A DNA stretch of 64,000 nt, taken from Cyanidioschyzon merolae (taxonomy: Eukaryota). The first letter of the stretch is position 1, and each line of letters begins with the position of its first letter. The stretch is taken from NCBI GenBank assembly GCA_000091205.1, contig AP006483.2. One strand, written 5' to 3'. Of this stretch, positions 23,658 through 64,000 are shown piece by piece. Position numbers and translations under genes: made by a program. The notes under the pieces were generated by a model that saw only the letters and a program-made list of their open reading frames with translations, was not told the DNA's origin and did no database searches.

Positions 23658-23905
23658 ACTAGTATTCGTAATATTTGCGACACCAAGCTAGCGCCATAGA
23701 GACAACTTCGCAGTGTAATGCGTTGGTCAGGTGCAGCGGTTTCGCACGCCCACTGAAGGCATCGCTGCAGCGGGTTGCAACAACTAGTATTTGTAATATT
23801 AGCGACACCAAGCTAGCGCCATAGAGACAACTTCACAGTGTAATGCGTTGGTCAGGTGCAGCGGTTGCGCATGCCCACTGAAGGCATCGCTGCAGCGGGT
23901 TGCAG
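23658..23905. repeat. Tandem direct duplication, 2 units of about 125 bp
   Basis: The unit starts at actagtattcgtaatattTgcgacaccaagctagcgccatagagacaacttc... at 23658 and again at 23783. The two copies differ by about 5 substitutions. Confidence 0.85.
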
Positions 23906-37035: not shown

Positions 37036-37080
37036 GCGCACGCACGCATGCACGCACGCACGCACGCACGCACGCACGCT
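37036..37080. repeat. (ACGC)n microsatellite immediately upstream of the CDC20/CDH1 start
   Basis: cgcacgcacgcatgcacgcacgcacgcacgcacgcacgc, visible directly in the sequence. Confidence 0.9.
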
Positions 37081-37196
37081 GCCAATATTTTTCGAGTTTC
37101 AGCTGTGTCAAGCACGTGAAGAAAAAGCGCTTCTGCTGCTGTGTTTGTGTTCCCAGGCGGTACCAACGACAGGTCCGTGTTCTTTTTTCCTATCCG

Positions 37197-39677: not shown

Positions 39678-42600
39678 GGTTGCCTGCTACTGTTGCTGCT
39701 GTGCATTGAATGCTGCTCACAGGAGCGGCGTTCGCGTAACTCCTCCTGGGGCACCCGTCAAACGCGGTGCTGCATCTCGGAATGCCAGGGCATGACCCCT
39801 GCTTGCAGCCTCCCTCCGCTTCGTTGTTGCACGGAACGCAGGCGCGCTCTGCGGCATGAATAGCATGCTCATGGTCGTCGCAGAGGCTGCTGTCCTCGAC
39901 ACCGTCACAGCAGAGTGCTTGCGGGCATCACATTCCTGATAGGCATGCTACTGGCCGTTGATATCTACGCGGTTGGCGCTACACTTGTCGCGATGGTGTT
40001 TCATCGATAGTTGGCGCAGTACGCGCACCAGAGTAAAAAGGACCGCGATGCTGCCTGATGAAAAGTTCCCAGTGACTGCTGCTGCTGTGCGTTCGGCGTT
40101 GGCAATGAGCGTTCCTCAGCTGAATGCGTCCGGGCATTCTCTGAAGATGCGGGAAAGAAGCAGCCTGGCACAAATCATGGAAAGGCGGGGCTATTTATAG
40201 TTATGCCCAAACTGCTGAAGGTCAACGGGCTCTTTTTCCAGAAGTCATCAGTGGACGCGCTGATACCCACGGTGTGGAGGCAAGCCGCACACGCCCTGGT
40301 GTAGGGTTCCACGGGTATTCGCGGCGTGAATGCGCTTACCACTCGTGGGAGCGAAAAGAGCAGTCAGAAACAAGAGCCTGCTTCTCTATCGTTGAGCGCG
40401 TCATATGCTTACTGGATTTGCGGGACGTCAGGCACAGCCGCTGGAACCTATCGTGGCAGGCACCTCCTACGCAAGCCCTAGAAAAGAAGGGATTCTGAAT
40501 TCGTCAACTGCATGTGCCTTTTTGTTGTTGTTGCTATTGCTACTGACGTCTGGTCGGTGGGAAACGACGGACTGGAGTGCTATCTGTGGTGCCTGAGTTT
40601 GCTGCTGCTTCGTCTACACCGGCGTCGGTATGAAATGGAACCTAGACCTGCTCGCTCCATTCTTGAATTGAGATTTTGTCCCGAATTTGTTTTCGATAAT
40701 CAGGCACAACGTTCCGAGTACAGCGATAATGGCTCAGGGACTAGTTCGTAGAATGAGGATTGTTGGTGAGCCTTAAAGGGTGCTTCTTCAACGCCCTGCC
40801 GCTCGGTTTCTCTACGTCACTGGAATTACGACGATTTACAACACCGCCGAACACGGGTTCGTACCAAAACCATCATCATCATCATCATCATCTTATGCGA
40901 AGGCATGAGCCTTCACTCTGTTTCGTTCCTCAGGTGTGGCATGCTGCAATGCCGCTTGCCTCAAGTTTTCCATATTTCTGTTTCAAGGCCTTTCAGGGCT
41001 AACGTCATGGGCACCGGCAGGTCGACGCCGAGCAGCCATCAAAGCCGTCCTCGACGTCTTCTCTTGAAAGGCTCACAACGAACAATCCCGACACTTTTCA
41101 TGCCAAATAATCGATACCGTTCGAGACGCCTATCATCATCATGCTAGGGTCATTGAAGGAAAGGCGTCCAACAGCATTCGCTAGATTCCTCTTATCCGAC
41201 ATGCTTTCAGAGGCTCGCTTGCCTTTCGTTTGCATGGGAATGTATATCTCGGACTCGGACATCTGGTATCGCTGCATTGACCTCTGGCGGAGAGTGCGTC
41301 ACTGCATTGTCCCAAGGGAGCGCAGAAGAATCGAACGTTCTTGTGCGGCTCTCGACACTGGGTTTTCATTCCTGTACGCGATCCATCATGGACAGGATTG
41401 CGTTCAACACGTCCTTGTGCTAAATAGGACAGCATACGTTACCGTATGCATCGGATGAGGTACTCGCCAAGGAAAACGCCTCAAAAAAGCATGTGATTTT
41501 AGAGTACGAGTGTAGGGCGCAAGAATGGAAACGGGCCTCCAGCGCAGCCTTCTCTCCCCGTCGATAACATGCACCTTGCGGTGAAGCAGGTGTTCATGCT
41601 CCACAGGGCCGTGTCCGACGGAGCAGCTGCGATGGATATACGATATCATCTGACGACTGGCAAGCGCCACCGCAGCACATGGCGCACCGAGACTGGGCAT
41701 GATCAAGCTGAAAATGGAAAGGGAATCGTAAATCGCAACTTTGGGGAGTCTGTGTGTGTGTGTGTGTGAGGCATGCTGAGAAAAAAGCTGGAAGCGGTGA
41801 AATCGGTACTGTAATGCAGCTATCAACATCCTCCGACTGCTGACAAGACAGCGCGAAGGAAACGAGAGTCCAGCGTATTTCAAGCCGGAAATAGGAGAGA
41901 GGGCAGGATGCAGTTATGGGAAAAACCCGAATAGGCTGGTGTTGATCACAGTGGAGTGAGCGACTCGAGCTTTAGCGTAGACGCCTGAGTCAGCACAGTG
42001 GACCCATTCCATTCCATTCCATTCCAGTCTAGTCTCGTCTACTCCAGGCTAGGCAACACAGAAAGCACACACATGGCTAGCTTTACTGTGAATCCAACGG
42101 ACTCGTGTACCGGTCAGCTGTGACATCTGGACAGTTCCTGGTCTCTCCGCTGCTGCGCTCCTTCTATTCGCGTTTGTTTTCAACTCCGCCTACCTAAAGC
42201 GTCCATTCCAAGCCGAGCGCTCGACGCCAGCATACGCAACAAATACCGTACCACTTTTGAACAGTATCATAGCGTCGAGGCTTGCAAACGAAGACAAGCG
42301 CTGCATCCAGCGGCTGCGCACGCAGTCGACGCGCTCTGAGCCTACGGAACACGTCAACGCTGCACGTGCGGAAGGTCCTGCTCGTTCCTCGTCCGAGCAG
42401 ACGAGTTACCAAAGCGCTCAGGGTTTCGATGACGCTCCAGCTACGCGCGTTTACTCCAGAGTGATACAATTACTAGCGCGCCAAGTCGGCTGAGTAGCCT
42501 CGTTACAACGATTCTACTCTGCTCTGACCGCGAAAAGCTTATGCTGGATGTGCATACTCCGCCAAGTCATACGCTAAGCGTAACGAAGAAGTTGCTTCTT

Positions 42601-43135
42601 CCCTCGGGGCAAACGTATGCGCCCAGACTGAGAGCTCTCGCGACGTCCGCACCTCACGTCAGGATTCGGAGCCGGTTCAGCTCGGATCGACGCGCCAGCA
42701 CAATGCCAAAAAGTTCTGTCTGCACAGGTTTAGGCCACAACATTGAAAGTACAACGCATTTCAGTTCGTTGCAGTGCAGTTTCGAAGACAACAAGGCGTG
42801 CCTGCGGTAGTCCCAGTGGAGTCATACGCTGCGAACTTGCCACTGCGGGGAAACCGCACCATATGACCATTGCGCAGCAGTGGTGCTCTCGGCGAAGCGT
42901 TCACGGGAAACTTGCTGGAGTCGGGGTCTCGGAACACTTCCAGGAAGCCTGCTGAACAAGCGACTCACCCTCGATCTATACCAGGGAAGCAGCCTAGGCG
43001 AACCGCTGTGTCCGACACACACACACACGTAAAGACTGGCAAAGGTTGTTCCGGAGCTCGTGTCTTCGCAGTCGTACAAACGGCTCGCGCCGTCGAACGA
43101 GGCTTCCAAGAAAGCGCGTACGCAGCTGTTCCGCA

Positions 43136-46100
43136 ATGCCGCTTCCGTCAGCACAGACGCGTCGCTTTATTAAAAGAGCAAGAGGTGCTGGTGCCACTGG
43201 GCAGGCCTCGGTGCTCCGCGTCTCCCGGGAGCACTACTTGCGGAGTGATCTACCGCTGCCTCCGGAGCCAGCCCTGCGGCCGTTTCTCTTGGTACCCGAC
43301 ACGAACGTAGTGCTGCGTGCAGCGAGCCTTTTCGAACTCGATGCCGTCCAGGAGGTTGTCTTTTTGCAGACCGTGCTGCAGGAGACCCGCAAACAAAGTC
43401 CAGAGACCTACGATCGCATACGGCGACTGTTAGCTTCCCCGGAAGCGAAGCGCCGACACCTCTACCTCTTCAGCAATGAACACTGTGCAGCAACGTTCTC
43501 GGAGCCACTAAAGGGTGAGTCACCAAACGACTACTACGACCGGCTGATTCGCAAGTCTGTGGCGTGGTTGAATACTCAGTACAACGCACTGCAGGGGCCG
43601 CGAGTGGTGCTCCTCACCGAGGATCGCGAGAACGCTCGTCGAGCCAGAGACGATGATCATCTGGTTACCTTCAGCCTCGCGCAAGTGGATGCATGGTGTG
43701 CGGGCGCTGCAGACACGCGAGTTAGGGACCTAGTGGCAGACTCTGGCGGTCACCATGATGCAGCACTGAACGAAAGCGCTTCGGAAAAAGCGCATGCAGC
43801 ACCTGCGTCCAGGACGGAGTCTGCGCCCTACCCGGAGTACTGGCCAGTCGACAAGGTTGAACGCGCGCTCGCCAGTGGTAAACTGTTCCGTGGCGTATTT
43901 CGTGCAACCATGTATGAGCCGTTGGAGAGCGGTGTAGTGGTCATTCGGTCGCCAGCGGGAAATGCGGAGCCCCAGAAGACACAGGTCGCCACACAAGTGC
44001 AGCCAGCGCTGCGCATTCGGGTCCAGGGCGCTGCCGCCGTGAATCGTAGCGTTGACGGAGACCTCGTCGCTGTGCTACCACTGGACGGCGTTGTCGACGG
44101 AGCAGCCAGTGCTGGTCGAAATGCGATACCGACCATCGACGCAGACGCCTTCAGTAGCGTGACAGAGCAGGTGGTGACAGCTGCCTCTGCACTGGGATCC
44201 GAGTCCTCGGATCCGCTGGCTTCGACGCCTTCCCAGGGGCCTCGTCTTGGGAAGATTGTTGCAGTGCTTGAGCGCCGTTGGCGTGCGCAGTACTGTGGAT
44301 CGCTGCAGGCCAAATACACCGCAGATACATTGAGTTTCCAAGGTCGCAGACGACACCTCTTTTTGCCGGTGGATCGGCGGATACCCCCGATCCTACTGGA
44401 GACACTGCAGGCAGCGTCTCTCTACGGCAAGCGGGTGGCTGTTGCTCTTGATCGCTGGGATACCCAATCGCGTTTCCCGGTTGGTCATGTGGTCAGCGTG
44501 CTGGGGCGCATTGGCGATGAGCAAGTCGAAACGCAGGTTTTGCTTCTGGAGAACGGCATTGTGACCCGACCGTTTTCGGAGGCGGCGCTAGCGTGTCTGC
44601 CTCCACCAGACTTTTCCGTTGCGCCTGCCCCGATGGATACCACGCTGGTTGGTCGCCTCGATTTGCGGTCTATGTTTGTTTTCAGTATCGACCCACCGGG
44701 GTGCACCGACATCGACGATGCGTTGCACTGCCGCCTCGTGGATCGGAGCAATGGACAGGGAGCAAATGCGAGAGCGTCGACTCGCCTTCAAGTTGGCGTG
44801 CATATCGCTGATGTGGCGAGCTTCGTTCGAGCAGGGACAGCACTCGATGAAGAGGCACGGGAGCGTGGCTGCACTGTCTACCTGGTGGACCAGCGCATCG
44901 AGATGCTGCCGGCGCTGCTAACGAGCAACCTGTGCTCGCTGGTTGCGGGCAAGGATCGGTATGCGTTCTCGGTTCTCTTCGAGTTGGACGTTGAATCTGC
45001 CCAGATTAACGATGTCCAGTTTACACGCAGCATGATTAGGTCACGAGCATCGTTGACCTACGAACAGGCTCAGTTGATGCTGGATGCATTGGTTGTCGAC
45101 AAACAGAGCGCGAAGCAACTGGGGATACCGCCCGAGCTAGGCGAAGCGCTGCCGCTTCTAGCCCGCGTTGCAGGAAGACTGCGGGCTGAACGACTCGCCA
45201 ATGGTGCGCTCATTCTCGCGTCACCGGAGATCCGTTTCGAGCGAGCGGATGGTGAGAGCCCGAGTCCCAGCGTTGGTTCAGGCTCCAGTTGTCGCAGTTT
45301 TGACACGCACCACCTCGTCGAGGAGTTTATGCTGCTCGCAAATGTGACGGTAGCTAAGCGCATTGTGCACCAGTTTCCGCACTCGGCGTGCTTGCGCCGA
45401 CATCCTCCGCCGAGTGTCGAGCAGTTTGAGCCACTGGTACGGGCGGCAGCAGCATACGGAATCGAGATGCACGTGGATTCGTCCAAGGCGCTTGCGGCAA
45501 GTCTCGACGCCGTCTCAACGACCTCAGCTGGCCAAGAGGACCCACTGCTGGAAGAGCTGTTTCGGATGCTTGCAACTCGTTGCATGATGCAGGCTGCATA
45601 CTGCTCCGCTGGCTCGGCTCCTGCGTCATCCTACTACCACTACGGACTCGCAGTGCCGCTGTATACCCATTTCACGTCACCGATACGGCGCTATGCCGAC
45701 ATTATTGTACATCGCCAATTGGCAGCAAGCTTGGGGTATGAGGATGCTCCTGGTGAGTTGCTCATGAATGAGCAAGTCGAACGTATCTGTGAACACGTGA
45801 ACGAACGCTATCGCAATGCACAGGCCGCAGGACGAGCGAGTTCTGCGCTCCATGTGTTGCTCTGGTTCCATCGGCAATGCCAACGCCCAGCTCATGAAGC
45901 ACGCGATACGGCCTCGATGCTAGAGACAGACGGCCGAATTCTGCGATTCTTGTCGACTGGATTTGTGGCGTACCTGCCCAAGTTTGGTATTGAGGGCGTC
46001 GTTCGCGTAGACGGTGCAGAGACCTCCTGGGTATTGAGCCCTGATTCGCAAACGATCCTCCATAAGGACTCGGGAGTGACGTACCGTATTTTGGGCGCTT

Positions 46101-46282
46101 GTCGTATTCGAATTGTTATTGATGAAAATGCTGTCGGTGCCGATCGTATTCGATTCGAGCTGCTTCCTAGGAACGCCAACAACGCCGTTCAAAGTCGAAC
46201 GACGTCGGGCGTGTGCAGTAGTGGCGGCAACCGCGCCCAAGACGAAACGTCTCCTACTGACGTACAGATGCCACCAAAATAA
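43136..46282 (+). CDS. DIS3: Exosome catalytic subunit DIS3/RRP44 (PIN plus RNB exoribonuclease)
   Basis: 1049 aa from ATG 43136; the track start is a TTG. The N-terminus (VLRVSREHYLRSDLP ... LLVPDTNVVL) matches the Rrp44 PIN region. The RNB catalytic motif FSIDPPGCTDIDDALHC is present, plus RNase II-family C-terminal S1-like sequence. Confidence 0.85.
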   Translation: MPLPSAQTRRFIKRARGAGATGQASVLRVSREHYLRSDLPLPPEPALRPFLLVPDTNVVLRAASLFELDAVQEVVFLQTVLQETRKQSPETYDRIRRLLASPEAKRRHLYLFSNEHCAATFSEPLKGESPNDYYDRLIRKSVAWLNTQYNALQGPRVVLLTEDRENARRARDDDHLVTFSLAQVDAWCAGAADTRVRDLVADSGGHHDAALNESASEKAHAAPASRTESAPYPEYWPVDKVERALASGKLFRGVFRATMYEPLESGVVVIRSPAGNAEPQKTQVATQVQPALRIRVQGAAAVNRSVDGDLVAVLPLDGVVDGAASAGRNAIPTIDADAFSSVTEQVVTAASALGSESSDPLASTPSQGPRLGKIVAVLERRWRAQYCGSLQAKYTADTLSFQGRRRHLFLPVDRRIPPILLETLQAASLYGKRVAVALDRWDTQSRFPVGHVVSVLGRIGDEQVETQVLLLENGIVTRPFSEAALACLPPPDFSVAPAPMDTTLVGRLDLRSMFVFSIDPPGCTDIDDALHCRLVDRSNGQGANARASTRLQVGVHIADVASFVRAGTALDEEARERGCTVYLVDQRIEMLPALLTSNLCSLVAGKDRYAFSVLFELDVESAQINDVQFTRSMIRSRASLTYEQAQLMLDALVVDKQSAKQLGIPPELGEALPLLARVAGRLRAERLANGALILASPEIRFERADGESPSPSVGSGSSCRSFDTHHLVEEFMLLANVTVAKRIVHQFPHSACLRRHPPPSVEQFEPLVRAAAAYGIEMHVDSSKALAASLDAVSTTSAGQEDPLLEELFRMLATRCMMQAAYCSAGSAPASSYYHYGLAVPLYTHFTSPIRRYADIIVHRQLAASLGYEDAPGELLMNEQVERICEHVNERYRNAQAAGRASSALHVLLWFHRQCQRPAHEARDTASMLETDGRILRFLSTGFVAYLPKFGIEGVVRVDGAETSWVLSPDSQTILHKDSGVTYRILGACRIRIVIDENAVGADRIRFELLPRNANNAVQSRTTSGVCSSGGNRAQDETSPTDVQMPPK

Positions 46283-46760
46283 CATACCATCGGAGGAAAT
46301 TCCCTTATACCTCCCCTGCGGTATTCCTCGGCGAGCTACGTCGAAGCTCATCTACGATCGTTGTGATCTCTAAGCGCAGCGCTGCGGAACCCTTGGCACT
46401 ATGTACCGGCGAAGTTGTTGTTCGAAATGGTCAGAGATCTGCCTAGTTTCTGAAAAGGCATTGAGCGCTTGTGCTAGTTGCGCTGAACGCTAGACAATCT
46501 ACGGGAGATTTAGCTCGGACTCTGGACAATTGACGGGCGGTCACTCGTGCCGCTACGCAAAAGAGGTTTTTGACTGGATACGCACACTTACGCGATCGAT
46601 TCTAGCCGATGACGTGATCGGCAGCTTTCGCACCGGAGACGTCCTAACCCAAGAAAGTACAAGGCATGTTTGTCTCTGATCCGCTGTACCAGGGCTAAAG
46701 AGTAGTTCGCTCACCTGCTGTAAGTAGAGCACCGTTTCCGCTGGGTACCGCACGTGACGG

Positions 46761-47867
46761 GTGCTTCGCAGCTCGATACCGTCACCACTGCCAGCGTCCG
46801 CTTCCTTTGGTAATGCAGCGTTCGCCTGTAGCGCGCCGGCAGCACGCGCTGCATCTTCGAAAGGGCCCGAAGCAGTCGCAGATCGCCGTGATCACTGGCG
46901 CGTCCTCTGGGGTCGGTCTGTATGCAGCTCGCGCTCTGATCAGCAAGGGCAACTGGCACATCGTCATGGCATGTCGTGACATTGATCGGGCGGAACGCGC
47001 AGCAAACAGCGTGAACCTTCCAAAGGACGCCTATACAGTGCTGCATTGTGATCTGGATGATTTCGCCTCTGTACTAAAGTTTGTGAGAGAGCTGTCAAGT
47101 GTGGCGCGCATCGATCACCTAGATACCCTGATCTGCAATGCCGCTATCTGGCATCCGCGGGACAAGAAACCGCGTTTCACGGTGGACGGCATCGAGAAGA
47201 CCATACAGGTTTGCCATCTGAGCCATTTGCTTCTATGTCGGGAGCTGTTGCCGAAGCTGAAAATATCGCGCGGGCGCATTGTGTTTCTGACGACTCAGAC
47301 ACACTCGCCGAATTCGCTGCCGGGAAAGATCCCCCCGCAGGCTCGTCTCGGTGATTTGTCTGGTCTAGCCGCGGGGCTTGGTCCGCAGACGACGGGCATG
47401 GTGGACAGTGGCCCGTTTGAGCCCACAAAAGCTTACAAAGACGCCAAAGCCGCGAACGTGTTGACAATGAAGGCGCTCAGTGATCGATACGGCCGCGACG
47501 GGGTGACCTCTGTGGCGATTTTTCCGGGATGTGTCGCCGACAGCAACCTCTTCCGCGAAAAGCGTGGCTGGTTCCGCTGCGTATTCTTTCCGATTCTTCA
47601 AAATACATCACTCGGCAATACGTTCCGAATGATGAGGCCGGACGCCGCGTAGCCGAAGTGGCGCCCCAGGGACAGTTCCCGGACTCGGACTGGTATTATC
47701 AGTGGCGTGGCAAATATACGGAAGGTCGACAGAAGACGAAACCGCAGGTTATTGAACCAACATACGAAATCCACAAGGCAGATCAGTTTTTCGAACTGAG
47801 TCTTGATCTGATCGACCAGGCGTTGCGGCGGCGAGGCCTCAAGTCGACTATCTTGGCCCCTGTCTAA
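46761..47867 (+). CDS. POR: Light-dependent NADPH:protochlorophyllide oxidoreductase (LPOR), with two apparent +/-1 frameshifts
   Basis: Frame 46813-47652 gives VITGASSGVGLYAARAL...WHIVMACRD...YTVLHCDL...NAAIW...GDLSGLAAGL...AYKDAKAANVLTM...FPGCVADSNLFRE, matching LPOR throughout. The C-terminal continuation (KYITRQYVPNDEAGRRVAEV...WYYQWRG) is in another frame (47529-47867), shifted at a caaaa run near 47600. A Ser/Ala-rich transit-peptide-like N-terminus (MLRSSIPSPLPASASFGNAAFACSAPAARAASSKGP) is in a third frame (46761-), shifted at ggg/ccc near 46865. Confidence 0.8.
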
Positions 47868-50655
47868 GGTTTGTTAGTGATGAAAATGAGATGCGGGCTT
47901 CGGAGCGCAGACCGCTGCTTCAAGAACAGATGTGGGAGCAACAGCGTAACGATGAGACGGCACCCCACAGTCACGATCGGATCGTGATCGGGTGAAAGGG
48001 CACTCATCCTGACGTGGTGAACCAAAATCGCTCCGCGAGTCATGAAGCGTACTGCAATAGTGATTAATATAGCTATAGCTATGACCTACTTCGGATCGAA
48101 TGCGCCAGAGTATGCTAAAATCGGTCGTCCGTGAGTGTAGAGCATATGTGCGGCCACTGCATATAGCGTATCCGCTCTGGAGTGTACGCGAAAGCGTTCA
48201 GAATTAGGGACATTTATTGTTGAATCTCATCGTGGGACCTGGTACTGAATATGAAATGCATCCGATTCTTTTGCTCCGGCCGTGAGACAGATGCATGGAA
48301 TCAGGATTTCCCTGGTCCCTAGGAGCTGCCTGGGTACAGGGGATGCTACGAGTGCCCTCTTCCGAATTTGAATGGATTCTACGAGTTGCAGAGCGGTCTC
48401 TCATGTTATATTAGTGGGTCGTACCTTCCGGGCAGTGCGCTAGGACATGTCATTAGTCTGCGACAGCCGAGCGACAGCCATCGAGTGGCGAGCTAGAAGA
48501 AGCTAGACTACTACGGCACGGTGCTGACCAACACAGCCTTCCCCGTGTGTACTGGGAAAGCGGTGCCGAAGAGGAGCAACGTAGGTCGTGTTTGAACACC
48601 GCCACTACGGCGAGGAAACGGGATTTACCATCTCCACAGATTTTACCCTTTCGAGGCAGATTCTGCCAAGAAGGCGAATCGTCAAATTGAAGGATGATTT
48701 CAGCTTTCAACTTCTACTCTGGGGGATTAATTGCGAATATCTAGTTGCGAGCATGTATTTAGCTTCTGTTTCCTTTTTTCTTTGGATACAGTAGGGCAAG
48801 CAGCTGAACCACGCAAGCAGCCCGCATGTTAGATTGCGAAAAATATTGCAGAAGCTGGATCGTAGCATGAAGAAGCTCTAAACTCCAGAACGCGCCTTCA
48901 CATGCGAGGAAATCCAAATAAACCCCGATGAATCCGTAGCAGCGAGCCATCGAACACAGAACAATGCGAGAGGCCCAAGGAATGGATCATGGCTCCGCTC
49001 ACTGACAGAGCCGGTGATCGTGCCTCCCGCGAATCATTGGACAAAAGAGAACAAGGAATCCAGGGCAATATGTCTGGGGAGAGCGTTCAAGAAGAAAGGA
49101 TATGTACTGGGCAATGTGCTGTATGAAAAGCACATTGCGAAACAGGTGCTGGCATCATTGCCTGAGCACGGTTGAAGTTCGAGATAGAATTTGTCCGTAG
49201 ACTTGGTCGCCAAGTCTCGCTGTTTGCTCGATAACTATGCGGAGATTTTCGTGGATCCTGCTGGGAAGACTGTCGGATCGCCAAAGGTATATATGGTACT
49301 TATAAAGTGCCCGCTACTCAACTAAACAGTTACGGAACGACGCCTCTGGGAATACAATTGTTTATGATGCTAGGCACCGTCTTGAAAAAGCAGCTACACA
49401 TTCAGCGACTCTGATCAAGCAGGCAAACATGATCTGATTTCAGTTTTCGAGCCCCAGACGTTGGATCATTGTCTTGGCTGCTGCCAAAAGACCAATTCAG
49501 ACTAGAGCATTTTCAAAGTTCAACAAGTTCCCACTCCGAAATGCGAGCATGGATATTCATTGGTGTCATGACGCCCTTGGCGGGTTACGGATCGAGGCCG
49601 ACATTCATGTAGACAGTGTCATCTGCAGCAGCAGAGCTCTCTTTCCGGGGAGGGGATGTAAAAATACACTCCACGGAGGATTTTTCGGTAAATTGGATGA
49701 AACGTGAGGAAGTCTCCGATTGTGAAAGTATTCTACGCGGATCATTGGTCTGCGCCAGCCCTGCAAATGCATGGTGATGCAAGGCTTGCCAGCGGCAGTT
49801 GAAATACATGCTCAAAGCTTACGCCGAATAAGGTTAGATGAAGAAGTGACTTACGAGTTCCCACTTCGTGGGTTGATAGCTGAAGCATGGGTACGGACAT
49901 GTGCGGGTGTTTTCGAGCAACGAGGGAGGGTCCCGAATCAGAGACCACATTCCTCGCGAGCAATATTGTTTAGTATTCCTCGCAATAGAAACATTGGAGC
50001 TCACTAGTTAATGTTTCTTATCTAAGACAAATACCAATGGTACAGACCTACATAAACCTCCCAACTACTCAGCTTGGCTGTCACCACGAGAACAGGACTG
50101 CAACACAATAAATCTAACACGGAATATTTCCACTACAATCGTCTCCCTAAAATATAAAATAGAAAATACGCCTTAGAGATTCATCTGCCTTTCAGGTGGA
50201 AGACGAACCTCAGCAACCGATAGTTCGTTATTCGCTATCCTTCTTACCCCAAGCCATAGTCTGTTGAGCCCTGCTGACTCGCACCTGGAAGGAGCAGTAC
50301 TCGGGAGTTACTCATTCCAATGAAATCCCACTAGCCTATATATAGCTTTCAGTACCTCTCTCAACTTGGATATTTCGGACTATGAACCCCGAAATCCCTA
50401 CGTCCGTTACGCTCCAGTCTCGACATCAACGTGAATTCTTCATCGCATCATGATGACTCCAATTCAAATTCCTCTGCAGTGCGCGCGCGCGTTTCGCGTT
50501 TTTGGCGCTATCACGTTGTGCGTTGTTGTTTTGGCTTTCACAAAACACGGCGGTTACGTTCGTGTTGACCATAACGAAAAAACAATAGTGAAGAAATATT
50601 CACGCAAGAAAGAACAAATATCCGTATTTATTGGACTGAGAGAGCATCGAACGAG

Positions 50656-53391
50656 ATGTTTCGTGCTCGCTCTCTGGTACGTGCCCTGGGAGTAGCTGTT
50701 TGTCTATTGTTGGCGGCGACGTTTTCCGTTTCGCTTGTGGCTGCGTTGTCGCCTGTGAGTACGGTTAGCTGGACCTGGATAGGTGGAGAGACGGGTGTCA
50801 ATAATCCTGGTAATTATGGAACGCTGAACCAGACTTCAGCAGATAGTGTTCCAGGAGGCCGTTCCGATTCAGCAGCCTGGGTCGGAAGTTCGAGCTTGGT
50901 ATACTTGTTTGGCGGGCTTGGGTATGGAAACCCATATCTGAGCTACTTTAATGATCTATGGACCTTCAACTTGACCTCATATGAATGGACGTGGATAGGA
51001 GGTTCCTCAGAAACCGACCAACCAGGAGTGTACGGCACAGTCGGCACAGGCAGCCCAAATAGTATACCCGGCAGCCGTTACGGAAGTGCGTATTGGCAGA
51101 CGGACGAGCACCATTTTTGGTTGTTTGGAGGACTCGGCTTCGATGTGAACGGTAATCAGGGCGAACTGAACGACATGTGGCGGTACGATACTGAAACGGG
51201 AATCTGGACGTGGTTCAGTGGGAATGATACTTTTAACGCCAATCCAGTCTATGGACCGAAGGATATCTACAGTCAAATTTACAACCCCGGAGGCCGAGGT
51301 AGCGCGGCATTCTGGCTAGGCGCGGACGGTTTGTTTTGGATTTTTGGTGGTGCGCGTATTGCGTATGATCTTCTGTCAGATCTCTGGTCATTCAACCCTG
51401 TTACATTCGAATGGGCATACAGAGGCGGATCACAACTTGTTAACCAGCCTGGTAACTATAGCGCACCTGGCGTGGCGAGCAACTCAAATGCCCCAGGTGC
51501 GCGCGGCTTCTCGCATACGTGGACAGATTTTGAAGGAAATCTCTGGTTGTTCGGCGGCTATGGCTACGGAAACAGCACAGCACTAGGGCAAGGCGAATTG
51601 AATGATCTCTGGGTCTACAACATAAGCCAATCCGTATGGATTTTTATCACAGGGAATACCACTATTAACAATCCAGGATCATATGGAAATCTCGGTGCTT
51701 TCTCCCCAACCAGTTACCCAGGTGCAAGATTCTCAGGCGTAAGTTTTGTGGATCCTTTGGGTAATCTACAGCTGTTTGGCGGTGCGGGACTCGCCAATAC
51801 AAGCGAATCCTTTGGCAATTTGAACGATCTTTGGGTATTTGATATCACACTTGGTCAGTGGGCGTGGATCAATGGAAGCCAAAGTGTGGATGCTCTTTCA
51901 GTATATGGAGTTTTGAACGAATCCGACCCGAGTGTTGTACCTGGTGGTCGCTTTGGACCAGCTTTCTGGAACACCAGTGGGACTGATCCGCTCATATTTG
52001 GTGGAAGTGGATTCTCGAACACGAGCAGAGGTGGCTTTCTCAATGATGCCTTCGCTTTGAGAGAAACGTTCTTTACGCCTACCTCTACGCCTACGCCAAC
52101 ATCAACGCCAACTCTGACACCTACAATTACGGCAAATGCTACTGCGACCCCGACACCCACGCTGACACCTACACCAGTCTGCACCATTGAGATCTGCGGC
52201 TCTCCAGGACAGTACACCAACCAGGACGCTTGCGAGCAAGTCGGATGCTGCTTCAACTCCCAGACAAACGCGTGCACCCTGAAGAGCGTCTCAGTGGCGT
52301 GCAGCGCTGTTCCAGTGACGCAGCGCGTCCCCTGCGGCTGGAGCTACATCTACCCCGACGAGTGCACTGCGATACCGGGATGCTGCTGGCAGCCCACAGC
52401 GAACGGCATCCTCGCGCCCTGGTGCTACTACGACATCAACCATGCACCGCAGGCTTCTGTAGCGCTGCAGGAGGTGCAGGCACCAGTACCCGTCTGCCCG
52501 TCACCGGGAGCGCAGCGCCAGCCGTGCGGCAACGCGGGTATCAACCAGTTTACATGCTATGCCCAGGGCTGCTGCTACGACTCGCAGGCGCAGAACCAGT
52601 GGGTGCAGAACGGCAAGCAGCAGAGCGACTTTGAGTCGAACCCGTACTGCTTCCAGCCCGAGAAGACGTGCGCGGTGGGCGAGTTTGAGCGCCAGCCGTG
52701 CACGAATGCGGTGAATCAGAACCAGCAGCTGAACAATAACATCAACAATAACCAGTTTGTGCGTCTGCTGAACACGCTGCTGTACGGAGAGCAGCATCGG
52801 ACGCAGCGCACGAGCTACTCGCCGCAGCAGTGTCTGGAGGCTGGTTGCTGCCTGGGGCTCGGCAACGAGTGCTTCCAGCCGATGACCGAGTACGTGTGCC
52901 AGACCTACGGGTACGTCTCGAACTCGCTGAGCGGCACGACCGGCAACGTGTCGAACTCGAGCTATATTGCTTGCGGCCCCGAGTGCTGCAACGCCGAGAC
53001 GCAGAACTGTACGTACAACCCCTTCAGCAACAACAACAACCAGCAGCAGCAGCAGCAATTGCAACAACAGCAACAACAACAGGTGCTGCTGCCGTCATTC
53101 TGTGTGTGCAAGGACCCAACGAAGCAGTGCGGGACGTACCTGATCCCTTCGGATAACCTTGTGAACAAGGTGCGTTGCTGCCGCGCTGACGAGGAGTGCA
53201 TCAACAACCAGTGTGTGGTGATTAGTCCAACACCGACTCCGAGTCCCGTGGCTGTGACAGCGACACCCTCTGCGACGGTGTCTGCAACAGTCTCTGCGAC
53301 AGCTTCTGCGACGGTGTCTGCGAGTGCATCAACGAGTGCATCAGCGAGTGCTTCAGTTTCAGCTTCTGTGTCGACGTCTGCGAGCGCCTAG
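50656..53391 (+). CDS. Secreted modular protein: signal peptide, about 6-blade kelch-type beta-propeller, Thr/Pro linker, 4 trefoil-like Cys-rich modules, poly-Q/N, and Ser/Ala/Val/Thr repeat tail
   Basis: 911 aa. Signal peptide: MFRARSLVRALGVAVCLLLAATFS. Repeated kelch blades follow (...WTWIGG..., GGR..AAW...LFGGLG, LNDLW.Y/F...). The linker is TPTSTPTPTSTPTLTPT.... The Cys modules CG....C...GCC(F/W/Y)...W(C) read e.g. ICGSPGQYTNQDACEQVGCCFNS and VPCGWSYIYPDECTAIPGCCWQP...WCYY. Poly-Q derives from (CAG/CAA)n at 53035-53090. The terminal ATVSATVSATASATVSASAS... comes from 12-bp repeats. Confidence 0.6.
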   Translation: MFRARSLVRALGVAVCLLLAATFSVSLVAALSPVSTVSWTWIGGETGVNNPGNYGTLNQTSADSVPGGRSDSAAWVGSSSLVYLFGGLGYGNPYLSYFNDLWTFNLTSYEWTWIGGSSETDQPGVYGTVGTGSPNSIPGSRYGSAYWQTDEHHFWLFGGLGFDVNGNQGELNDMWRYDTETGIWTWFSGNDTFNANPVYGPKDIYSQIYNPGGRGSAAFWLGADGLFWIFGGARIAYDLLSDLWSFNPVTFEWAYRGGSQLVNQPGNYSAPGVASNSNAPGARGFSHTWTDFEGNLWLFGGYGYGNSTALGQGELNDLWVYNISQSVWIFITGNTTINNPGSYGNLGAFSPTSYPGARFSGVSFVDPLGNLQLFGGAGLANTSESFGNLNDLWVFDITLGQWAWINGSQSVDALSVYGVLNESDPSVVPGGRFGPAFWNTSGTDPLIFGGSGFSNTSRGGFLNDAFALRETFFTPTSTPTPTSTPTLTPTITANATATPTPTLTPTPVCTIEICGSPGQYTNQDACEQVGCCFNSQTNACTLKSVSVACSAVPVTQRVPCGWSYIYPDECTAIPGCCWQPTANGILAPWCYYDINHAPQASVALQEVQAPVPVCPSPGAQRQPCGNAGINQFTCYAQGCCYDSQAQNQWVQNGKQQSDFESNPYCFQPEKTCAVGEFERQPCTNAVNQNQQLNNNINNNQFVRLLNTLLYGEQHRTQRTSYSPQQCLEAGCCLGLGNECFQPMTEYVCQTYGYVSNSLSGTTGNVSNSSYIACGPECCNAETQNCTYNPFSNNNNQQQQQQLQQQQQQQVLLPSFCVCKDPTKQCGTYLIPSDNLVNKVRCCRADEECINNQCVVISPTPTPSPVAVTATPSATVSATVSATASATVSASASTSASASASVSASVSTSASA

Positions 53392-54614
53392 GAAGCAGCG
53401 ACATCTTGAGCTCCACGGACTGCGTTGGCGGACGTGTCAACTGTTAATTTGCTCACAGTCTAGATCACGTCTATGCTGATACTCTGTTGCGACAATATTC
53501 CACTCATGTTCACAAGACCCGAGAGTACGAATGAACGAATGCGTTAATGCGGATAAATGTGCGCGGAGTGTCATCTGAGGTCCTCTTCGGGGACTGACAT
53601 TCAGAGATCAGATGAACAGAAAGAATGGACCAGAATTTGCTTTTGGAACGTAAAGGAATGATTACCTCTGCCTATGAGCTTGCCCCCGATGATAGCCTTG
53701 GTGGTAATGGCGGTATATTGGTACCCTTTCTTCTCTTTGTAGTCAGAATACGGTTTCCGAGTTGCATGTAGCGAGTGTGTCTGCAGTAGGGCGTCTGGAA
53801 CTGTTTTTTTAGTTTCGTTGTACTTGAGCACATTCTAGTCCTGAGGAGCGGTTCTGGAGCAAGTTTGACTCGATCCGTACAACCGCAAATTTCACCAAAA
53901 TCCGATTCCTCTTGAGGAAAAGCTAATATTCGTGACGCCTGCATACGGGCTCCGGCTCCGCTTGGCACGAATGGAAGCAGGGCCGCCAGCCTCACAGCGC
54001 ACTTATAGCTTGTTCTGTCGGTCGAGGCATCGTCTCGATATATTCACCACTGTTGCCTACCGTTGCTCGTAGGCTACGTCAATAAAACCGTCTGAAGTGT
54101 TGTGCTGATTTCCGGATTATGTTTATGTCTTGTACACTAGAAAAAAAACGAGAACGAAGTGGTGGTAAGCCGTGAAGACGTAGATGCGCAGTTACCGTTA
54201 CTCGGTCCAGAGGCACACCATGCCAGGCAGTCACATCCTGGGACGAGCTGTACGCTATGTAAGCATTAGCACAGCACCTTGAGCACAGCTGGAGGCATTC
54301 TAGAAGCGGCCAGTATCGATTCTAAACAATTGATCTTGTTCTATATCATTGCAAACAAATTGGTAAACGGATCCGTTGCTAATAAATGGACACAGGGCCC
54401 TCGGAAGATAGATAAACGACAAGGCAGCTGATGATGTATCGAATACAGAAGAACTCGAGTTGCCCATTTTCCACATTTTCTGTCACATCAGTCCTGTTAC
54501 AGCCATGGCAGCGATATCTTCACGAAAAGCATCAACTATTACCACATATACTCTAGGTACTCTTCGCAAATACGGTCTGAATAAGCGACGTAACGCGCCC
54601 GCACCGAACGCTTC

Positions 54615-56943
54615 TCAAACGACGAACGTCGCCGCCGGCCGTGTACGGTAGTGGAGGGAAAACCGCGCCTTGGACAAATCGTCTCCAACTGATGTGCAGA
54701 CGCCCCCCGCCTTTCTCGACGAGCCACCCACTACTGCTTCCAACTTCTTCTCATATAGTTCGACTTTGAGAGGTTGTCCAATAAAATCCTCTTGTGTCCA
54801 CTCTGGAGGTCGTTTCTCCAGCACCGCACATCTCCGTATATTGATAGCGGCATGAAAATCTCGGTTCACGAACTCCATACATTTCGTGCCGTTGGGAGCT
54901 GTACTCACCAATACGAGTAACCCTTGAACTTTCGCCTTCCTTTCCATTTGCTCCTCCGCCAGCGGTCCGTACTTTTGCAATTTCCTCAGCGCTCTTCTGG
55001 CACTTTTCCATCTCCACCCTCTGAAGCGTGCAGCCCAGTTCTTGGTATGTATAGGACGTCCGGAACTCATATACAGGTATCGTAACGAGACGCCGGGCGC
55101 ACTCCTTGTACAGCTTCGTCGCTGGAGCTGGCGTAGTTCCTTTTCTGTTCTTCCAGCGCCCTGCTCCATACGCTTCTACGAGCCTCTGACGGTCATCCCC
55201 CTCAAAGGCGCTCAACTGATTGAAAAAATTCGCAAACGCCCGCTGCTTCACACCGTATAGATTCATTCGCAGACGAGCCCACCGGGGCTTTCTATACTCC
55301 TCCCACAGCGCATCCCAATGGGCAACACGAAATTCCATGAATTTCCGAAAAGCTTCATGGACCGCTCCGCGGCTCGTCGCCTCGCTCAAAGCTTCCAGGT
55401 GATGCTTTATTCCTGCATTCCACGTAACGATTATCATCCTTGCATTCACTACAACGGATTCTCGATAGTATCTCGCTCTCGAGAATCTCAGCAGACGCAT
55501 GTCTTTCTGGCGTAAATTACCGTCCATGCCATCTTCCGCACGCTTCGGTGCTGCGATGGTGATGATATTCGTGTTCCCAGGATCCGCGCCAACCACAATG
55601 TCTTTATCCTGCACTTCCTGTGTGGCAGGATCCGCCTCTTTCTTTCCTTGATGCTTCGTCGCGTCAACCATAAAGTCGTTATCCTGCACATTCTGTTCGG
55701 CAGGATCCGCCTCCTTCTGACCTTCATCCTTCACCGCGCCAACGACACGGTCGTTATCCTGCACTTTCTGCATCACAGGTTCCGCCTCTTTCTCTTTTTC
55801 ATCCTTCACCGCGTCAGCGACAAAGTCGTCATCCTGCACCTCCTGTGTCGCAGGATCCGCTTCTTTGATTTTTTAATGCTTCGCAGAGGGCGAAGCGAAA
55901 GGCACAATCGGACGGTCCACTTTCAAGCGCCGATAGTGTACATACAAGGTTACTCCATCGGTCTCGATCAACGCAGTGAATACCTTTTGGCTTCTCACTT
56001 TGAGCCGTTTGAAATTGTAGATGTTCTTCAAGTACGTCGCCCGGTTTTCACCGGTGAAGTCATCCCTGCTAACAGTGAACACTGGACTGATCTCCTTCAT
56101 GATGCCGTAAAACACGTCCGAATCGATATTCACGAAATGTGACTTGATGCTGCACATTGGAACCACGTTGAAGCGCTTACCCATTAGGACAGCCTTCCGT
56201 CTCTCCCAATCTTCTTTTTTTTCTTCACTCAGCTTCATCTCCGCATTTCGCTCGAGTTCTCGGTCCAGAAACACGAAATAGCGCAGAATAAGACGATAGT
56301 ATCTTTCCTTATCTTTTTTCAACTCTGATGTCTTGTATGTTGGATTCGCCGGCCCCAAGATTGCACGGTGCTCTTGTATAACCGAATGGATTACAGAAGT
56401 ATCATTCGTGCTGTCGTTAAACGCCTTCGTGTCGACGAATTCGACATCACCTTCATGCTTGCGATCGTTCTTGATGCCATTGATAATCACCTATACTCCT
56501 TTGCGAGAGACGCCCGGGTAAAGTGCAAACACGGCGCGTATCATGAAACGTTCTAGGTTCATTGTCAAATGGTTCGTCAGGTTCGTGAGGTTCTTCATCT
56601 CCCCATAGTCGTAAATACTCCGGTCCCCCTTGTATCGAGTACCCTCGAAGCCGTAAAAGGGATGTTTTTCGTGGAGGGCATGAACCCGCTCGTTTTCCTC
56701 CCGCGCTTCCACTGTTGCAAGCATCAGGTATCGAATAAAGGTCTCGTCGAATAACTCGTCCAGAATCTCGACCGTTTCCATGTACGTCACGTCGCGATAC
56801 ATATCCCTCGCAAAATGCATCAGCCCTGACCATGCCTTGATAATACTCTTGGAGTACGAGTCGACACGTTTTTCGATAGCGTCTCGCAAATTTTCCCTGT
56901 AAGGATGCTTGATATGATTAAGAAGACAGGCTTTCACCATCAT
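54615..56943 (-). pseudogene. TnpB/Fanzor-like RuvC nuclease, about 770 codons: one in-frame TAG (56491-56493) and at least two frameshifts (fragments 56491-56943, 55873-56490, 54751-55839, 54615-55169)
   Basis: RuvC-I motif VVGADPGNTNIITIAAP (Asp codon 55582-55584). RuvC-II-like VYEFRTSYTYQELGC...EKC. RuvC-III-like CMEFVNRDFHAAINI (Asp codon 54858-54860). The long N-terminal region is homologous to copy A. The protein end GQPLKVELYEK is conserved in all copies. Confidence 0.65.
55579..55875. repeat. 75-bp tandem repeat (about 3.5 units) inside Fanzor-like copy B, encoding 25-aa acidic repeats (QDNDxVVGAVKDEGQKEADPAEQNV)
   Basis: The units atcctgcac(t/a)t(c/t)ctg...caggatccgcctc(t/c)tt... 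begin at 55606, 55681, 55756 and 55831. Copy A has a single unit at the homologous position. Confidence 0.85.
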
Positions 56944-58416
56944 CTCATTCTACAGTCATCTTTCCCGCCGCCTTCGACCTAGGGCCTCCCGCTTTCGGTT
57001 CTTCTTCTTTTCCTGTTCTTCTGGACTCGGCTCTGTTTTTTGTTTTTATTTCTGGCAGCAGGCGACACTGGGCCTCCGGGATCGTCGACTTGCTTTTTCA
57101 TAGCTTTTCTTTTCATTTTTTTGTGTGAAAAAGAACGCTCTTTGAACCCTTCTATTATATACTGCGAGAAATCAATTGAATATGTTTACTTGAGGGTTGA
57201 GACACAATCGAACTGGAAACTATGATTTGTTACGACTTCCACGCAAATACAGCTTGCCCGTTAGAACATCAAGAAAACGTGTCGTCACGGTCGCGTTTCT
57301 CTTCGAAGGCGACAGATGCGTCGTGTCTCGCAAGTGCCATACTTGGAGATGCACGTATCGAGCGCGCCATACAGGAAAAAGGACAGTGACCTACGATTTA
57401 CAAGAAACGATATAAAATTTTTTCCCGCTCTACGATAAGCGTTTAAGGGGAAATAGATCGCCGTTCTATCGGAAGCTTATGTTCGAGGCGGAAGGTCCCG
57501 CGAGCCGGTCGAGTCTACCGGGCTAGAGCTCGGTATCCCTCTTAAGTGGCTGCTGCCGCTGCTGCTGCAAGACCTGCGTAGCTCGTTCGCAACGCATTTT
57601 ATCCTGAGACTATGCACAGGATGCTGCGTTGGGCCTCGCCCTGGTCGCAGTGGAACCCTAGTACAGCACTTCGCGCTGACGCAGGTAGTACGTCTTTCTG
57701 CGCACTTTGCATGTTCCCAGAATGACAAATAGCCCTGATTCCGTTTCAAGTGAATCATTCCTCGAGCGGACGCCCTTAGTGGTATGGCAAAGCCGTTCTG
57801 TCTCTGTACAGCACCTGCTTGAGCGGTATAAGCGCTACAGCGGGTGCTCACAACAGGCTCGGCGCTCGATAGAACATACGAAACGACCAGTATATCAGAG
57901 AGGTAGTATGGATAATGGGACTTGAGGACAGGTGCACTATGATCGAGATATCCCCGGAAGCCATCGTGCGTTCCGAATTCTGGGATGCATGGGCAATGCA
58001 AACGTTCTTTCATCGAAAAGAAAAAAACGCTCCGGAGGCGGACTCGTCATCGAGACGCGCATCGCTCTGGATCGAATCTCCGGAAGGCGCTTCTGGGCGA
58101 TCGCGAAAGCGCTCAAGCGCATCTTTGTGTCCTCAACGGATAGCATGATTTATTCGGGGCGCTCAGTCTCGAGCGTTCCCTCTGACTTAAAGCAATAGCT
58201 TCGTGGATCCTACAGCTGTGTTGTCAAAGAGCACTGTACCTAGTTTTGGCGAGGCCTATAGTGCTGGAGAACAAAACGATCACGGGTTTGTAGCGATCTC
58301 GGCACCAGTGCTGGAAACAACCCTGCACTGGAGCTCGGGCGATCTGAAACCTGTAGTCGGACTTTTTCGAGGATCTGTCTCGCAAGGAAACAAATCGTGG
58401 AACTGTGCTCTTTGGA

Positions 58417-63975: not shown

Positions 63976-64000
63976 AATGGGGGGAATGGGGGGAATGGGG
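63976..64000 (+). repeat. Telomere repeat (AATGGGGGG)n, G-rich strand running 5'->3' toward the window end; truncated by the window edge
   Basis: aatggggggaatggggggaatgggg. AATGGGGGG is the telomere repeat reported for Cyanidioschyzon merolae. Confidence 0.8.

What the first reader, a model, noticed from the sequence alone, without database searches (positions are those of the whole stretch)
46761..47867. Light-dependent protochlorophyllide reductase gene carries two homopolymer-associated frameshifts
The LPOR homology is unambiguous and continuous but is spread over three reading frames. A transit-peptide-like Ser/Ala-rich N-terminus in frame 46761 ends at ...AASSKGP. The catalytic body runs 46813-47652. 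The conserved C-terminus KYITRQYVPNDEAGRRVAEV...YYQW runs 47529-47867. The shifts fall at a ggg/ccc run near 46865 and a caaaa run near 47600. That pattern is what homopolymer indel errors produce. About 17 kb of neighbouring coding sequence is frame-perfect, though. The alternatives are that a subtelomeric duplicate LPOR copy is degenerating, or that this locus was locally poorly sequenced. For an obligate phototroph this matters: it bears on whether there is a second functional copy or a DPOR bypass.
Basis: seen in the sequence. Interest (0 to 1): 0.6.

Follow-up and report, generated by a model that had tools for sequence, protein, structure and literature searches.

The report
Broken subtelomeric copy of LPOR gene
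This is a dead, duplicated copy of the light-dependent chlorophyll-synthesis gene LPOR, lying 16 kb from a chromosome end of a Cyanidioschyzon-type red alga, where such copies are already known, so it is ordinary.

Summary
The LPOR homology is real: the repaired protein aligns end to end with Arabidopsis PORB (E 5e-74).

- **Frames.** The homology uses two reading frames, not three.
- **No shift near 46865.** Intact 403-aa relatives, including two C. merolae 10D proteins, carry their plastid presequence in the same frame as the catalytic body. The "Ser/Ala-rich N-terminus" in frame 46761 is a chance overlapping ORF.
- **Three real lesions.** The start ATG reads GTA (46657-46659). An in-frame TAA lies at codon 14 (46696-46698). 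One base is missing in CAAAAT (47599-47604).
- **Not sequencing errors.** Each lesion recurs in independent metagenome contigs. These include two contigs that look orthologous, with about 99.5% identical unique flanks.

The copy lies in a P (LPOR), T (Kelch-trefoil), L (lactate dehydrogenase), telomere (AATGGGGGG) arrangement. Nozaki et al. 2007 described these genes in the subtelomeric elements of C. merolae. All but three of about 22 distinct, more or less full-length environmental copies are also broken.

C. merolae 10D has three annotated por genes and no plastid DPOR genes (Hunsperger 2015). Function therefore rests on intact paralogues, not on a DPOR bypass. Verdict: an ordinary subtelomeric pseudogene of low interest.

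The parts
46657..47867 (+). LPOR ('P') pseudogene, full homologous extent against intact 403-aa copies
   Evidence: DNA alignment to L001 (CDS of P0001) is 91% identical over 46468-48027. The multiple alignment places its CDS columns here.
46657..46659 (+). Lost start codon: GTA where intact copies have ATG
   Evidence: The same GTA occurs in L009, L036, L006 and L028-30.
46696..46698 (+). In-frame TAA at codon 14 of the plastid presequence
   Evidence: Read directly from the sequence and placed on L001 codon columns. Shared with L009 and the apparently orthologous contig L036.
46813..47652 (+). Longest remaining ATG-started ORF (279 aa). It has the Rossmann fold and catalytic body, lacks the presequence, and ends in the out-of-frame tail NTSLGNTFRMMRPDAA*.
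   Evidence: The ATG replaces GTG (Val) of intact copies. The same tail is seen in P0153.
47599..47604 (+). Frameshift site CAAAAT: one base missing relative to CAGAAGTAC or CAAAAGTAC of the other copies
   Evidence: Shared with L018, L020 and L037.
47601..47867 (+). Conserved LPOR C-terminus (KYITRQYVPNDEAGRRVAEV...STILAPV*), read in the other frame
46761..46979 (+). It is not part of the gene's reading frame.
   Evidence: Searches compared. Homologues are conserved in the other frame here.
46177..48431 (.). Core of the block shared with LPOR-bearing contig ends elsewhere. Some contigs match onward to about 53.2 kb and include the Kelch-trefoil gene.
   Evidence: blastn of the window against 39 loci.
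50656..53391 (+). Kelch + trefoil ORF, the 'T' subtelomeric gene family
   Evidence: Pfam. Family described in PMC1955436 and PMC9812998.
58417..59481 (+). L-lactate dehydrogenase, the 'L' subtelomeric gene
   Evidence: Pfam Ldh_1_N and Ldh_1_C, translation. All CmLDH genes are subtelomeric (PMC11387445).
63975..64000 (+). Telomere repeat (G)AATGGGGG, cut by the window end
   Evidence: AATGGGGGG is the C. merolae telomere unit (PMC1955436).

Best explanation
The locus is a non-functional, degenerating paralogue of the nuclear gene for light-dependent protochlorophyllide oxidoreductase (LPOR). It belongs to the multi-copy subtelomeric 'P' gene family of Cyanidioschyzon-type red algae.

**Origin (inferred).** The copy arose by duplication and ectopic recombination between chromosome ends.

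**What disables it (shown).**
- The initiator ATG is lost (GTA).
- A TAA lies at codon 14, inside the plastid-targeting presequence.
- One base is missing at 47600, probably by slippage in a CAAAAA intermediate (inferred). This separates the last 89 residues from the catalytic body.

**Best possible product (inferred).** A leaderless 279-aa fragment from the ATG at 46813. It would lack both the N-terminal Phe-containing transit peptide and the conserved C-terminus, so it cannot supply plastid LPOR activity.

**Where function comes from (from the literature).** Intact paralogues at other chromosome ends, three annotated in strain 10D. The plastid genome has no DPOR genes.

**Why the rest of the coding sequence looks healthy (inferred).** Every invariant LPOR residue is still present. 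That fits recent inactivation, sequence exchange with other copies, or both.
For: **It is an LPOR homologue.**
-. Thr-Gly-Ala-Ser-Ser-Gly-Val-Gly, YKDAK and PGC are all present. All 53 invariant columns of a 14-sequence alignment (cyanobacteria to red algae) are retained.

**Lesions.**
-.

**The lesions are inherited alleles, not errors.**
- GTA and TAA occur in L009 and L036. L036 is about 99.4% identical to the window over roughly 9.5 kb of unique upstream genes.
- The -1 occurs in L018, L020 and L037. L037 is about 99.5% identical over the first 1 kb downstream, falling to about 95% by 50.5 kb. It also occurs in P0152 and P0153.

**Family context.**
- There are 35 metagenome loci at 86-95% nucleotide identity. 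Many sit at contig ends.
- All but three of about 22 distinct, more or less full-length copies have a lost start, stops or frameshifts.
- Intact 403-aa members include C. merolae 10D BAM81403 and BAM79708.

**Subtelomeric setting.**
- Kelch-trefoil gene, LDH gene and AATGGGGGG repeats lie downstream.
- Nozaki 2007 lists genes T, P and L at C. merolae chromosome ends.

**Mosaic nearest neighbours along the gene.**
- L009/L036 are closest at the 5' end, L001/L022/L023 in the middle and L018/L020/L037 at the 3' end.
- Identity to the orthologous contigs drops from about 99.5% in the flanks to 92-95% inside LPOR.
Against: - No read-level or transcript data could be examined, so expression and translation were not tested.
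- dN/dS against other copies is 0.24-0.53, not about 1. Most of the divergence accrued under constraint or was imported from constrained copies.
- All three other contigs that carry the -1 also carry a compensating +G at 47499-47500, which the window lacks. The window's G-run length is therefore the one position where a miscall cannot be ruled out.
- Metagenome contigs that end inside a repeat may be chimeric, which weakens the "orthologue shares the lesion" argument somewhat.
- I could not establish which genome the window comes from. Exact look-ups failed for five window ORFs, and the 10D gene positions are not in the index.
Confidence: 0.9

Rival explanations
1. The gene is intact in the organism, and the frame break is a homopolymer sequencing or assembly error at this locus.
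For: The break falls in a short A run (47600-47603), and the surrounding large ORFs are uninterrupted.
Against: - The same -1, together with its linked substitutions (TGC for TAC, TTT for TTC, AAA for AAG), is present in contigs from three other samples and in an ENA gene call.
- Most other copies read CAGAAG at this site, which is not a homopolymer.
- Two further lesions are substitutions (ATG to GTA, and a TAA codon). They are shared with L009 and L036.
Confidence: 0.03
2. The true allele is the compensated double frameshift (+G at about 47499 and -1 at 47600) seen in P0005, L018 and L037, and the window's G run is one base short. That would give one long ORF with 33 scrambled residues.
For: Every other contig with the -1 also carries the +G. 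P0005 is called as a 403-aa ORF with the segment GDLCGDFPGMCRQRQPLPRKAWLVPLRILSDSS, which equals the window's alternative frame.
Against: - The window as given has GGGG, not GGGGG.
- Even if this were true, the window copy would still lack the start codon and carry the TAA.
- The scrambled segment replaces the conserved PGC...LFRE...F.P.Q region, so the product would still not be a working LPOR.
Confidence: 0.05
3. The locus is expressed despite the lesions. One route is a -1 ribosomal or transcriptional slip on the A run. Another is a leaderless, C-terminally truncated SDR with a new non-plastid role, translated from the ATG at 46813.
For: - An ATG at 46813 has replaced GTG in exactly the group of copies that lost the upstream start.
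- The coding sequence keeps all invariant residues.
- dN/dS is below 1.
Against: - UUC AAA AUA is not a canonical X XXY YYZ slippery heptamer, and four As are too few for known transcriptional slippage (established knowledge).
- Every other copy with the 46813 ATG carries additional stops or frameshifts, so that group is not being kept open.
- Chromosome ends of C. merolae are enriched in the repressive mark H3K27me3 (PMC5405695).
Confidence: 0.02

Closest known systems
C. merolae 10D NADPH:protochlorophyllide oxidoreductase genes CMG217C and CMN338C (BAM79708 and BAM81403, which share a 90% cluster with P0001) and CMD190C
   Same: About 94% protein identity to the cluster representative P0001 after repair. 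Same presequence, in the same frame. Same C-terminus ...RRRGLKSTILAPV. Same position at chromosome ends.
   Different: Those genes are uninterrupted 403-aa ORFs. The window copy lacks the start codon, has a TAA at codon 14 and has a -1 frameshift.
Subtelomeric homologous elements of C. merolae (Nozaki et al. 2007, PMC1955436) and subtelomeric gene duplications of Cyanidiales (Cho et al. 2023, PMC9812998)
   Same: AATGGGGGG telomere, with P, T (Kelch-trefoil) and L (LDH) genes within about 17 kb of it. The block is homologous to many other contig ends.
   Different: I could not assign the window to a named chromosome end. I also could not check whether this copy is already flagged as a pseudogene in the published annotation.
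Canonical LPOR (Arabidopsis PORB 9tl6/7jk9, Thermosynechococcus 6l1h, TIGR01289)
   Same: Full-length collinear alignment, an LPOR-specific insertion loop, and the YxxxK and Cys motifs.
   Different: 43-45% identity. The score of 300 bits is below the TIGR01289 cut-off of 331, but the intact Cyanidioschyzon-type members tested (P0001, P0003, P0007) also score only 300-315. The ORF is interrupted.
CmLDH4, a degenerate subtelomeric LDH paralogue of C. merolae (PMC11387445)
   Same: Another subtelomeric paralogue in this lineage. Its annotated N-terminus is truncated although the upstream DNA still resembles the intact copies. This is the same mode of decay.
   Different: A different gene family. 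The LDH copy in this window appears intact.

Membership tests
LPOR (light-dependent protochlorophyllide oxidoreductase, TIGR01289 / EC 1.3.1.33) | SDR Rossmann fold with an N-terminal NADPH-binding glycine motif | tested here: met
   TGASSGVG at repaired residues 28-35. PF00106 E 6e-23. Invariant columns T28, G29, A30, S32 and G35.
LPOR (light-dependent protochlorophyllide oxidoreductase, TIGR01289 / EC 1.3.1.33) | Catalytic Tyr-x-x-x-Lys and the conserved Cys of the PGC motif | tested here: met
   AYKDAK (Y208, K212) and FPGCVA (C240) align with PORB AYKDSK and YPGCIA.
LPOR (light-dependent protochlorophyllide oxidoreductase, TIGR01289 / EC 1.3.1.33) | LPOR-specific insertion loop and C-terminal region, collinear with solved LPORs | tested here: met
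   One continuous alignment of residues 25-334 to 9tl6 residues 43-350, obtained only after joining the two frames.
LPOR (light-dependent protochlorophyllide oxidoreductase, TIGR01289 / EC 1.3.1.33) | Score at or above the curated equivalog cut-off (331.35 bits) | tested here: not met
   300.2 bits. The intact relatives P0001, P0003 and P0007 also score only 300-315, so the shortfall is lineage-wide and not specific to this copy.
LPOR (light-dependent protochlorophyllide oxidoreductase, TIGR01289 / EC 1.3.1.33) | A single open reading frame with a start codon and plastid transit peptide, i.e. a functional gene | tested here: not met
   GTA at the start position, TAA at codon 14, and a -1 at 47600.
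LPOR (light-dependent protochlorophyllide oxidoreductase, TIGR01289 / EC 1.3.1.33) | Light-dependent reduction of protochlorophyllide | not testable with these tools
   This needs an enzyme assay or complementation.
Cyanidioschyzon subtelomeric duplicated elements (Nozaki 2007) | Adjacent to AATGGGGGG telomere repeats | tested here: met
   Repeats at 63975-64000, about 16 kb downstream of the LPOR copy. The repeat unit is given.
Cyanidioschyzon subtelomeric duplicated elements (Nozaki 2007) | Carries the characteristic gene set (P, T, L, H ...) | tested here: met
   P at 46657-47867, T at 50656-53391, L at 58417-59481. No Hint/hedgehog match among the ORFs I scanned.
Cyanidioschyzon subtelomeric duplicated elements (Nozaki 2007) | Homologous to other chromosome ends of the same genome | tested here: inconclusive
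   Homologous to 35 metagenome loci, many at contig ends. The rest of this genome was not available.
Pseudogene (duplicated, non-processed) | Two or more independent disabling lesions relative to intact paralogues | tested here: met
   Three lesions.
Pseudogene (duplicated, non-processed) | Neutral evolution (dN/dS about 1) or absence of expression | tested here: inconclusive
   dN/dS is 0.24-0.53 against other copies. Expression is not testable here.

The most novel reading that the evidence does not exclude
The broken LPOR copies may not be inert. They could form, together with the few intact copies, a recombining subtelomeric pool in which pseudogenes donate and receive sequence tracts. In that case the only protochlorophyllide reductase of this obligate phototroph, which has no DPOR, would be maintained and diversified by gene conversion at chromosome ends. 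The lesions are shuffled between copies: the +G and the -1 are each found alone and together. Nearest neighbours change along the gene. Divergence inside LPOR is 5-10 times that of the flanks in orthologous contigs. All three observations fit this reading. Chimeric metagenome assembly could also produce them.
Probability: 0.2. Interest if true: 0.45.

Novelty: already known. Interest (0 to 1): 0.15.

Why it matters
It matters little on its own. The main value is as an annotation caution: this locus should be marked as an LPOR pseudogene and not repaired or counted as a functional por gene.

One wider point is mildly interesting. In this lineage the sole enzyme for the penultimate step of chlorophyll synthesis is encoded only by members of a subtelomeric, recombining and largely decayed gene family. 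Telomere-to-telomere assemblies would allow a study of how the intact copies are kept.

Tried and rejected
- **Second LPOR copy in the window.** The SDR ORF at 27574-28911 is a PRK06197/PRK06196-type oxidoreductase. It scores only 77 bits on TIGR01289, over the Rossmann half alone. Rejected.
- **Frameshift at about 46865.** No indel is seen in any alignment. Rejected.
- **Identifying the source record.** Exact look-ups of five window ORFs found nothing. Only the LDH was found, on a 1.3-kb JGI contig. The 10D protein P0133 is not in the position index either. Whether the window is strain 10D is therefore undetermined.
- **Pfam scan of the 3-kb repeated element.** Ten ORFs gave no hits.
- **Cho et al. 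2023.** The main text says nothing about LPOR.
- **Programmed frameshifting.** Considered and rejected for lack of a slippery heptamer and because of the extra lesions.
- **Not run, judged unnecessary.** Structure prediction, Rfam search and the representative-protein search.

Full report
**What is at the coordinates**

The + strand between about 46.66 and 47.87 kb carries clear LPOR homology. The mechanical ORF list gives 46807-47652 (281 aa, first ATG at 46813) and 47529-47867 (112 aa). Three-frame translation shows the body in the phase of 46762 and the conserved C-terminus (KYITRQYVPNDEAGRRVAEV...) in the phase of 46761. ORF 47529 is in the same phase as 46761, so the homology uses two frames, not three.

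Joining ...GWFRCVFFPILQ to KYITRQYV... gives a 351-aa protein.
- It matches PF00106.
- It matches TIGR01289 LPOR at 300.2 bits over model positions 2-312 of 315. The curated cut-off is 331.
- It aligns in one gap-free stretch across the junction to Arabidopsis PORB (9tl6/7jk9, E 5e-74) and to cyanobacterial LPOR structures.

The homology and one frame break are therefore real and far beyond chance.

**What the intact relatives show**

A search of the large protein collection found a tight group of relatives at 83-95% identity, followed by red-algal LPORs at about 55%. The full-length members are 397-418 aa. They start MQALFVSVPLYQERYIVRARAATRAPFPLRTPRNGCFAAGHCHHCQHPLPLVVQRLPVARRHHALHLRMGPKQSQIAVITG....

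The window's body frame reads ...CFAARYRHHCQRPLPLVMQRSPVARRQHALHLRKGPKQSQIAVITG.... The presequence therefore lies in the same frame as the catalytic body.

DNA alignment to the intact copy L001 (CDS of P0001) and a 35-sequence multiple alignment show no indel anywhere near 46865. They show three lesions instead:
- The codon aligned to the initiator ATG is GTA (46657-46659).
- Codon 14 is TAA (46696-46698).
- One base is missing at 47600. The window reads TTCA-AAATAC. Other copies read TTCAGAAGTAC or TTCAAAAGTAC.

An ATG at 46813 replaces the GTG (Val) of intact copies. It would start a leaderless product. That product would lack the N-terminal Phe-containing motif (MAF.../MQALF...) seen at the start of all red-algal presequences in the alignment.

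**Error or real mutation?**

A scan of JGI metagenome contigs returned 35 loci with copies at 86-95% nucleotide identity.
- The -1 at 47600 co-occurs with its neighbouring diagnostic substitutions in L018, L020 and L037, which come from three different samples. It is also seen in gene calls P0152 (ENA, a 112-aa ORF equivalent to 47529-47867) and P0153 (same out-of-frame tail ...ILQNTSLGNTFRMM...).
- The GTA and TAA lesions co-occur in L009 and L036.

Two of these contigs appear to be orthologous to the window rather than paralogous.
- L036 matches window 36989-47120, across the unique CDC20-like and Dis3-like genes, at about 99.4% outside LPOR.
- L037 matches 47469-50768, at about 99.5% over the first 1 kb downstream of LPOR and falling to about 95% by 50.5 kb.

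Alleles shared with independently sequenced relatives, two of them base substitutions, cannot be homopolymer errors of this assembly.

One caveat remains. All three other contigs that carry the -1 also carry a compensating +G in the G run at 47496-47500, and the window does not. That is the only position where a miscall in the window is conceivable. It would not rescue the gene. The 33 residues between the two shifts, which include the conserved PGC motif, would be scrambled as in P0005. The 5' lesions would also remain.

**Context**

Downstream of the LPOR copy lie three landmarks:
- a Kelch + trefoil ORF at 50656-53391;
- an apparently intact L-lactate dehydrogenase at 58417-59481;
- the repeat GAATGGGGG at the window end, 63975-64000.

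Nozaki et al. 2007 (PMC1955436) report AATGGGGGG as the telomere unit of Cyanidioschyzon merolae. They also report homologous elements of up to 20 kb at chromosome ends. The genes they list at the chromosome ends include T (trefoil factor), P (NADPH:protochlorophyllide oxidoreductase) and L (lactate dehydrogenase). Cho et al. 2023 and a 2024 LDH paper describe the same subtelomeric duplications.

The cluster of P0001 contains two C. merolae 10D proteins, BAM81403/XP_005537439 and BAM79708/XP_005535994. The window is therefore a chromosome end of C. merolae or a very close relative, and its LPOR copy is a member of a family already described as subtelomeric. I could not prove the strain. Exact look-ups of five window ORFs failed, and the 10D gene positions are absent from the index.

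**State of the family**

I projected each copy onto the codons of L001. All but three of about 22 distinct, more or less full-length copies have a lost start, premature stops or frameshifts, and these lesions are often shared between groups. Only L001 and L007/L008 are open throughout; L007/L008 read CTG at the start position, and P0002 (L008) uses an upstream start.

The lesions are reassorted. The +G occurs alone in L022/L023, the -1 occurs alone in the window, and both occur together in L018/L020/L037.

The window's nearest neighbour changes along the gene:
- L009/L036 at the 5' end;
- L001/L022/L023 in the middle;
- L018/L020/L037 at the 3' end.

Identity to the orthologous contigs falls from about 99.5% in the flanks to 92-95% inside LPOR. 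This suggests ectopic exchange among copies, although chimeric metagenome assembly within a repeat could mimic it.

dN/dS between the window copy and others is 0.24-0.53, against 0.28-0.34 between the two intact copies L001 and L008. All 53 invariant residues of a broad LPOR alignment are retained. Inactivation is therefore recent, or masked by exchange.

**Consequences for the organism**

Hunsperger et al. 2015 (PMC4337275) list three por genes in C. merolae 10D (CMD190C, CMG217C, CMN338C). They find no chlL, chlN or chlB in its plastid genome. Intact LPOR paralogues are the expected source of activity. The other SDR ORF in the window (27574-28911) is not LPOR. Chromosome ends in C. merolae are enriched in H3K27me3 (PMC5405695), which fits low expression but was not tested for this locus.

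**Verdict**

It is partly wrong: no second frameshift, a misassigned N-terminus, and two missed lesions.

Sequencing error is not.

The feature is an ordinary pseudogene in a gene family and genomic setting already described for this lineage, so novelty and interest are low.

The least ordinary reading still open is that the pseudogenes take part in a gene-conversion pool that sustains the only protochlorophyllide reductase of the alga.

Noticed in passing
window 6172-9218, 54607-58038, 60670-63837: A repeated element of about 3 kb occurs three times in the window at 65-89% nucleotide identity to metagenome loci. In most of those loci it lies directly upstream of the LPOR copy. Ten of its ORFs have no Pfam match. 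Two of the copies coincide with strongly negative GC skew, and one contains a 75-bp tandem repeat (55584-55866). One copy lies about 55 kb from the telomere.
   Followed up: partly
L018 and L020 (P0005, P0150, P0151), L037; corresponds to window 47496-47604: A compensated double-frameshift allele (+G in a G run, -1 in the A run 100 nt later) circulates in environmental populations. It is called as a full 403-aa ORF with 33 scrambled residues that replace the conserved PGC...FREKRGWF...FP.LQ region. L022 and L023 carry the +G alone.
   Followed up: partly
window 46489-47968 against L036 and L037: Identity to the apparently orthologous metagenome contigs is about 99.5% in the unique flanks nearest the gene but only 92-95% inside the LPOR copy, with clustered differences (for example 46842-46847). 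This points to gene conversion or chimeric assembly.
   Followed up: partly
window 46177-46352: The left edge of the block shared with other LPOR-bearing loci is ragged. In several loci it starts about 100 nt inside the 3' end of the Dis3/Rrp44-like ORF (43046-46282), so the C-terminal tail of that ORF may be encoded by repeat-derived sequence.
   Followed up: no
window 27574-28911 (+): A second SDR ORF of 445 aa. It matches the PRK06197/PRK06196-type oxidoreductase models and is not LPOR.
   Followed up: yes
P0001, P0003, P0007: The intact Cyanidioschyzon-type LPORs tested score only 300-315 bits on TIGR01289, below its 331-bit equivalog cut-off. Automated annotation with that model would not name them LPOR.
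   Followed up: partly
window 23658-23904: A 125-bp unit is tandemly duplicated (2.0 copies, 95% identity) in an intergenic stretch just downstream of the point (about 21.6-22.3 kb) where the large ORFs switch from the - strand to the + strand.
   Followed up: no
L004 (ENA ERZ1300892 NODE_33, LPOR at 10001-11296): The 69%-identical, intact LPOR of a more distant relative (P0007, 431 aa) lies about 29 kb into a 108-kb contig among housekeeping genes. No telomere or repeat was seen within the 10-kb flanks examined. Its LPOR may therefore sit outside the subtelomeric repeats, unlike the copies in the Cyanidioschyzon group.
   Followed up: no
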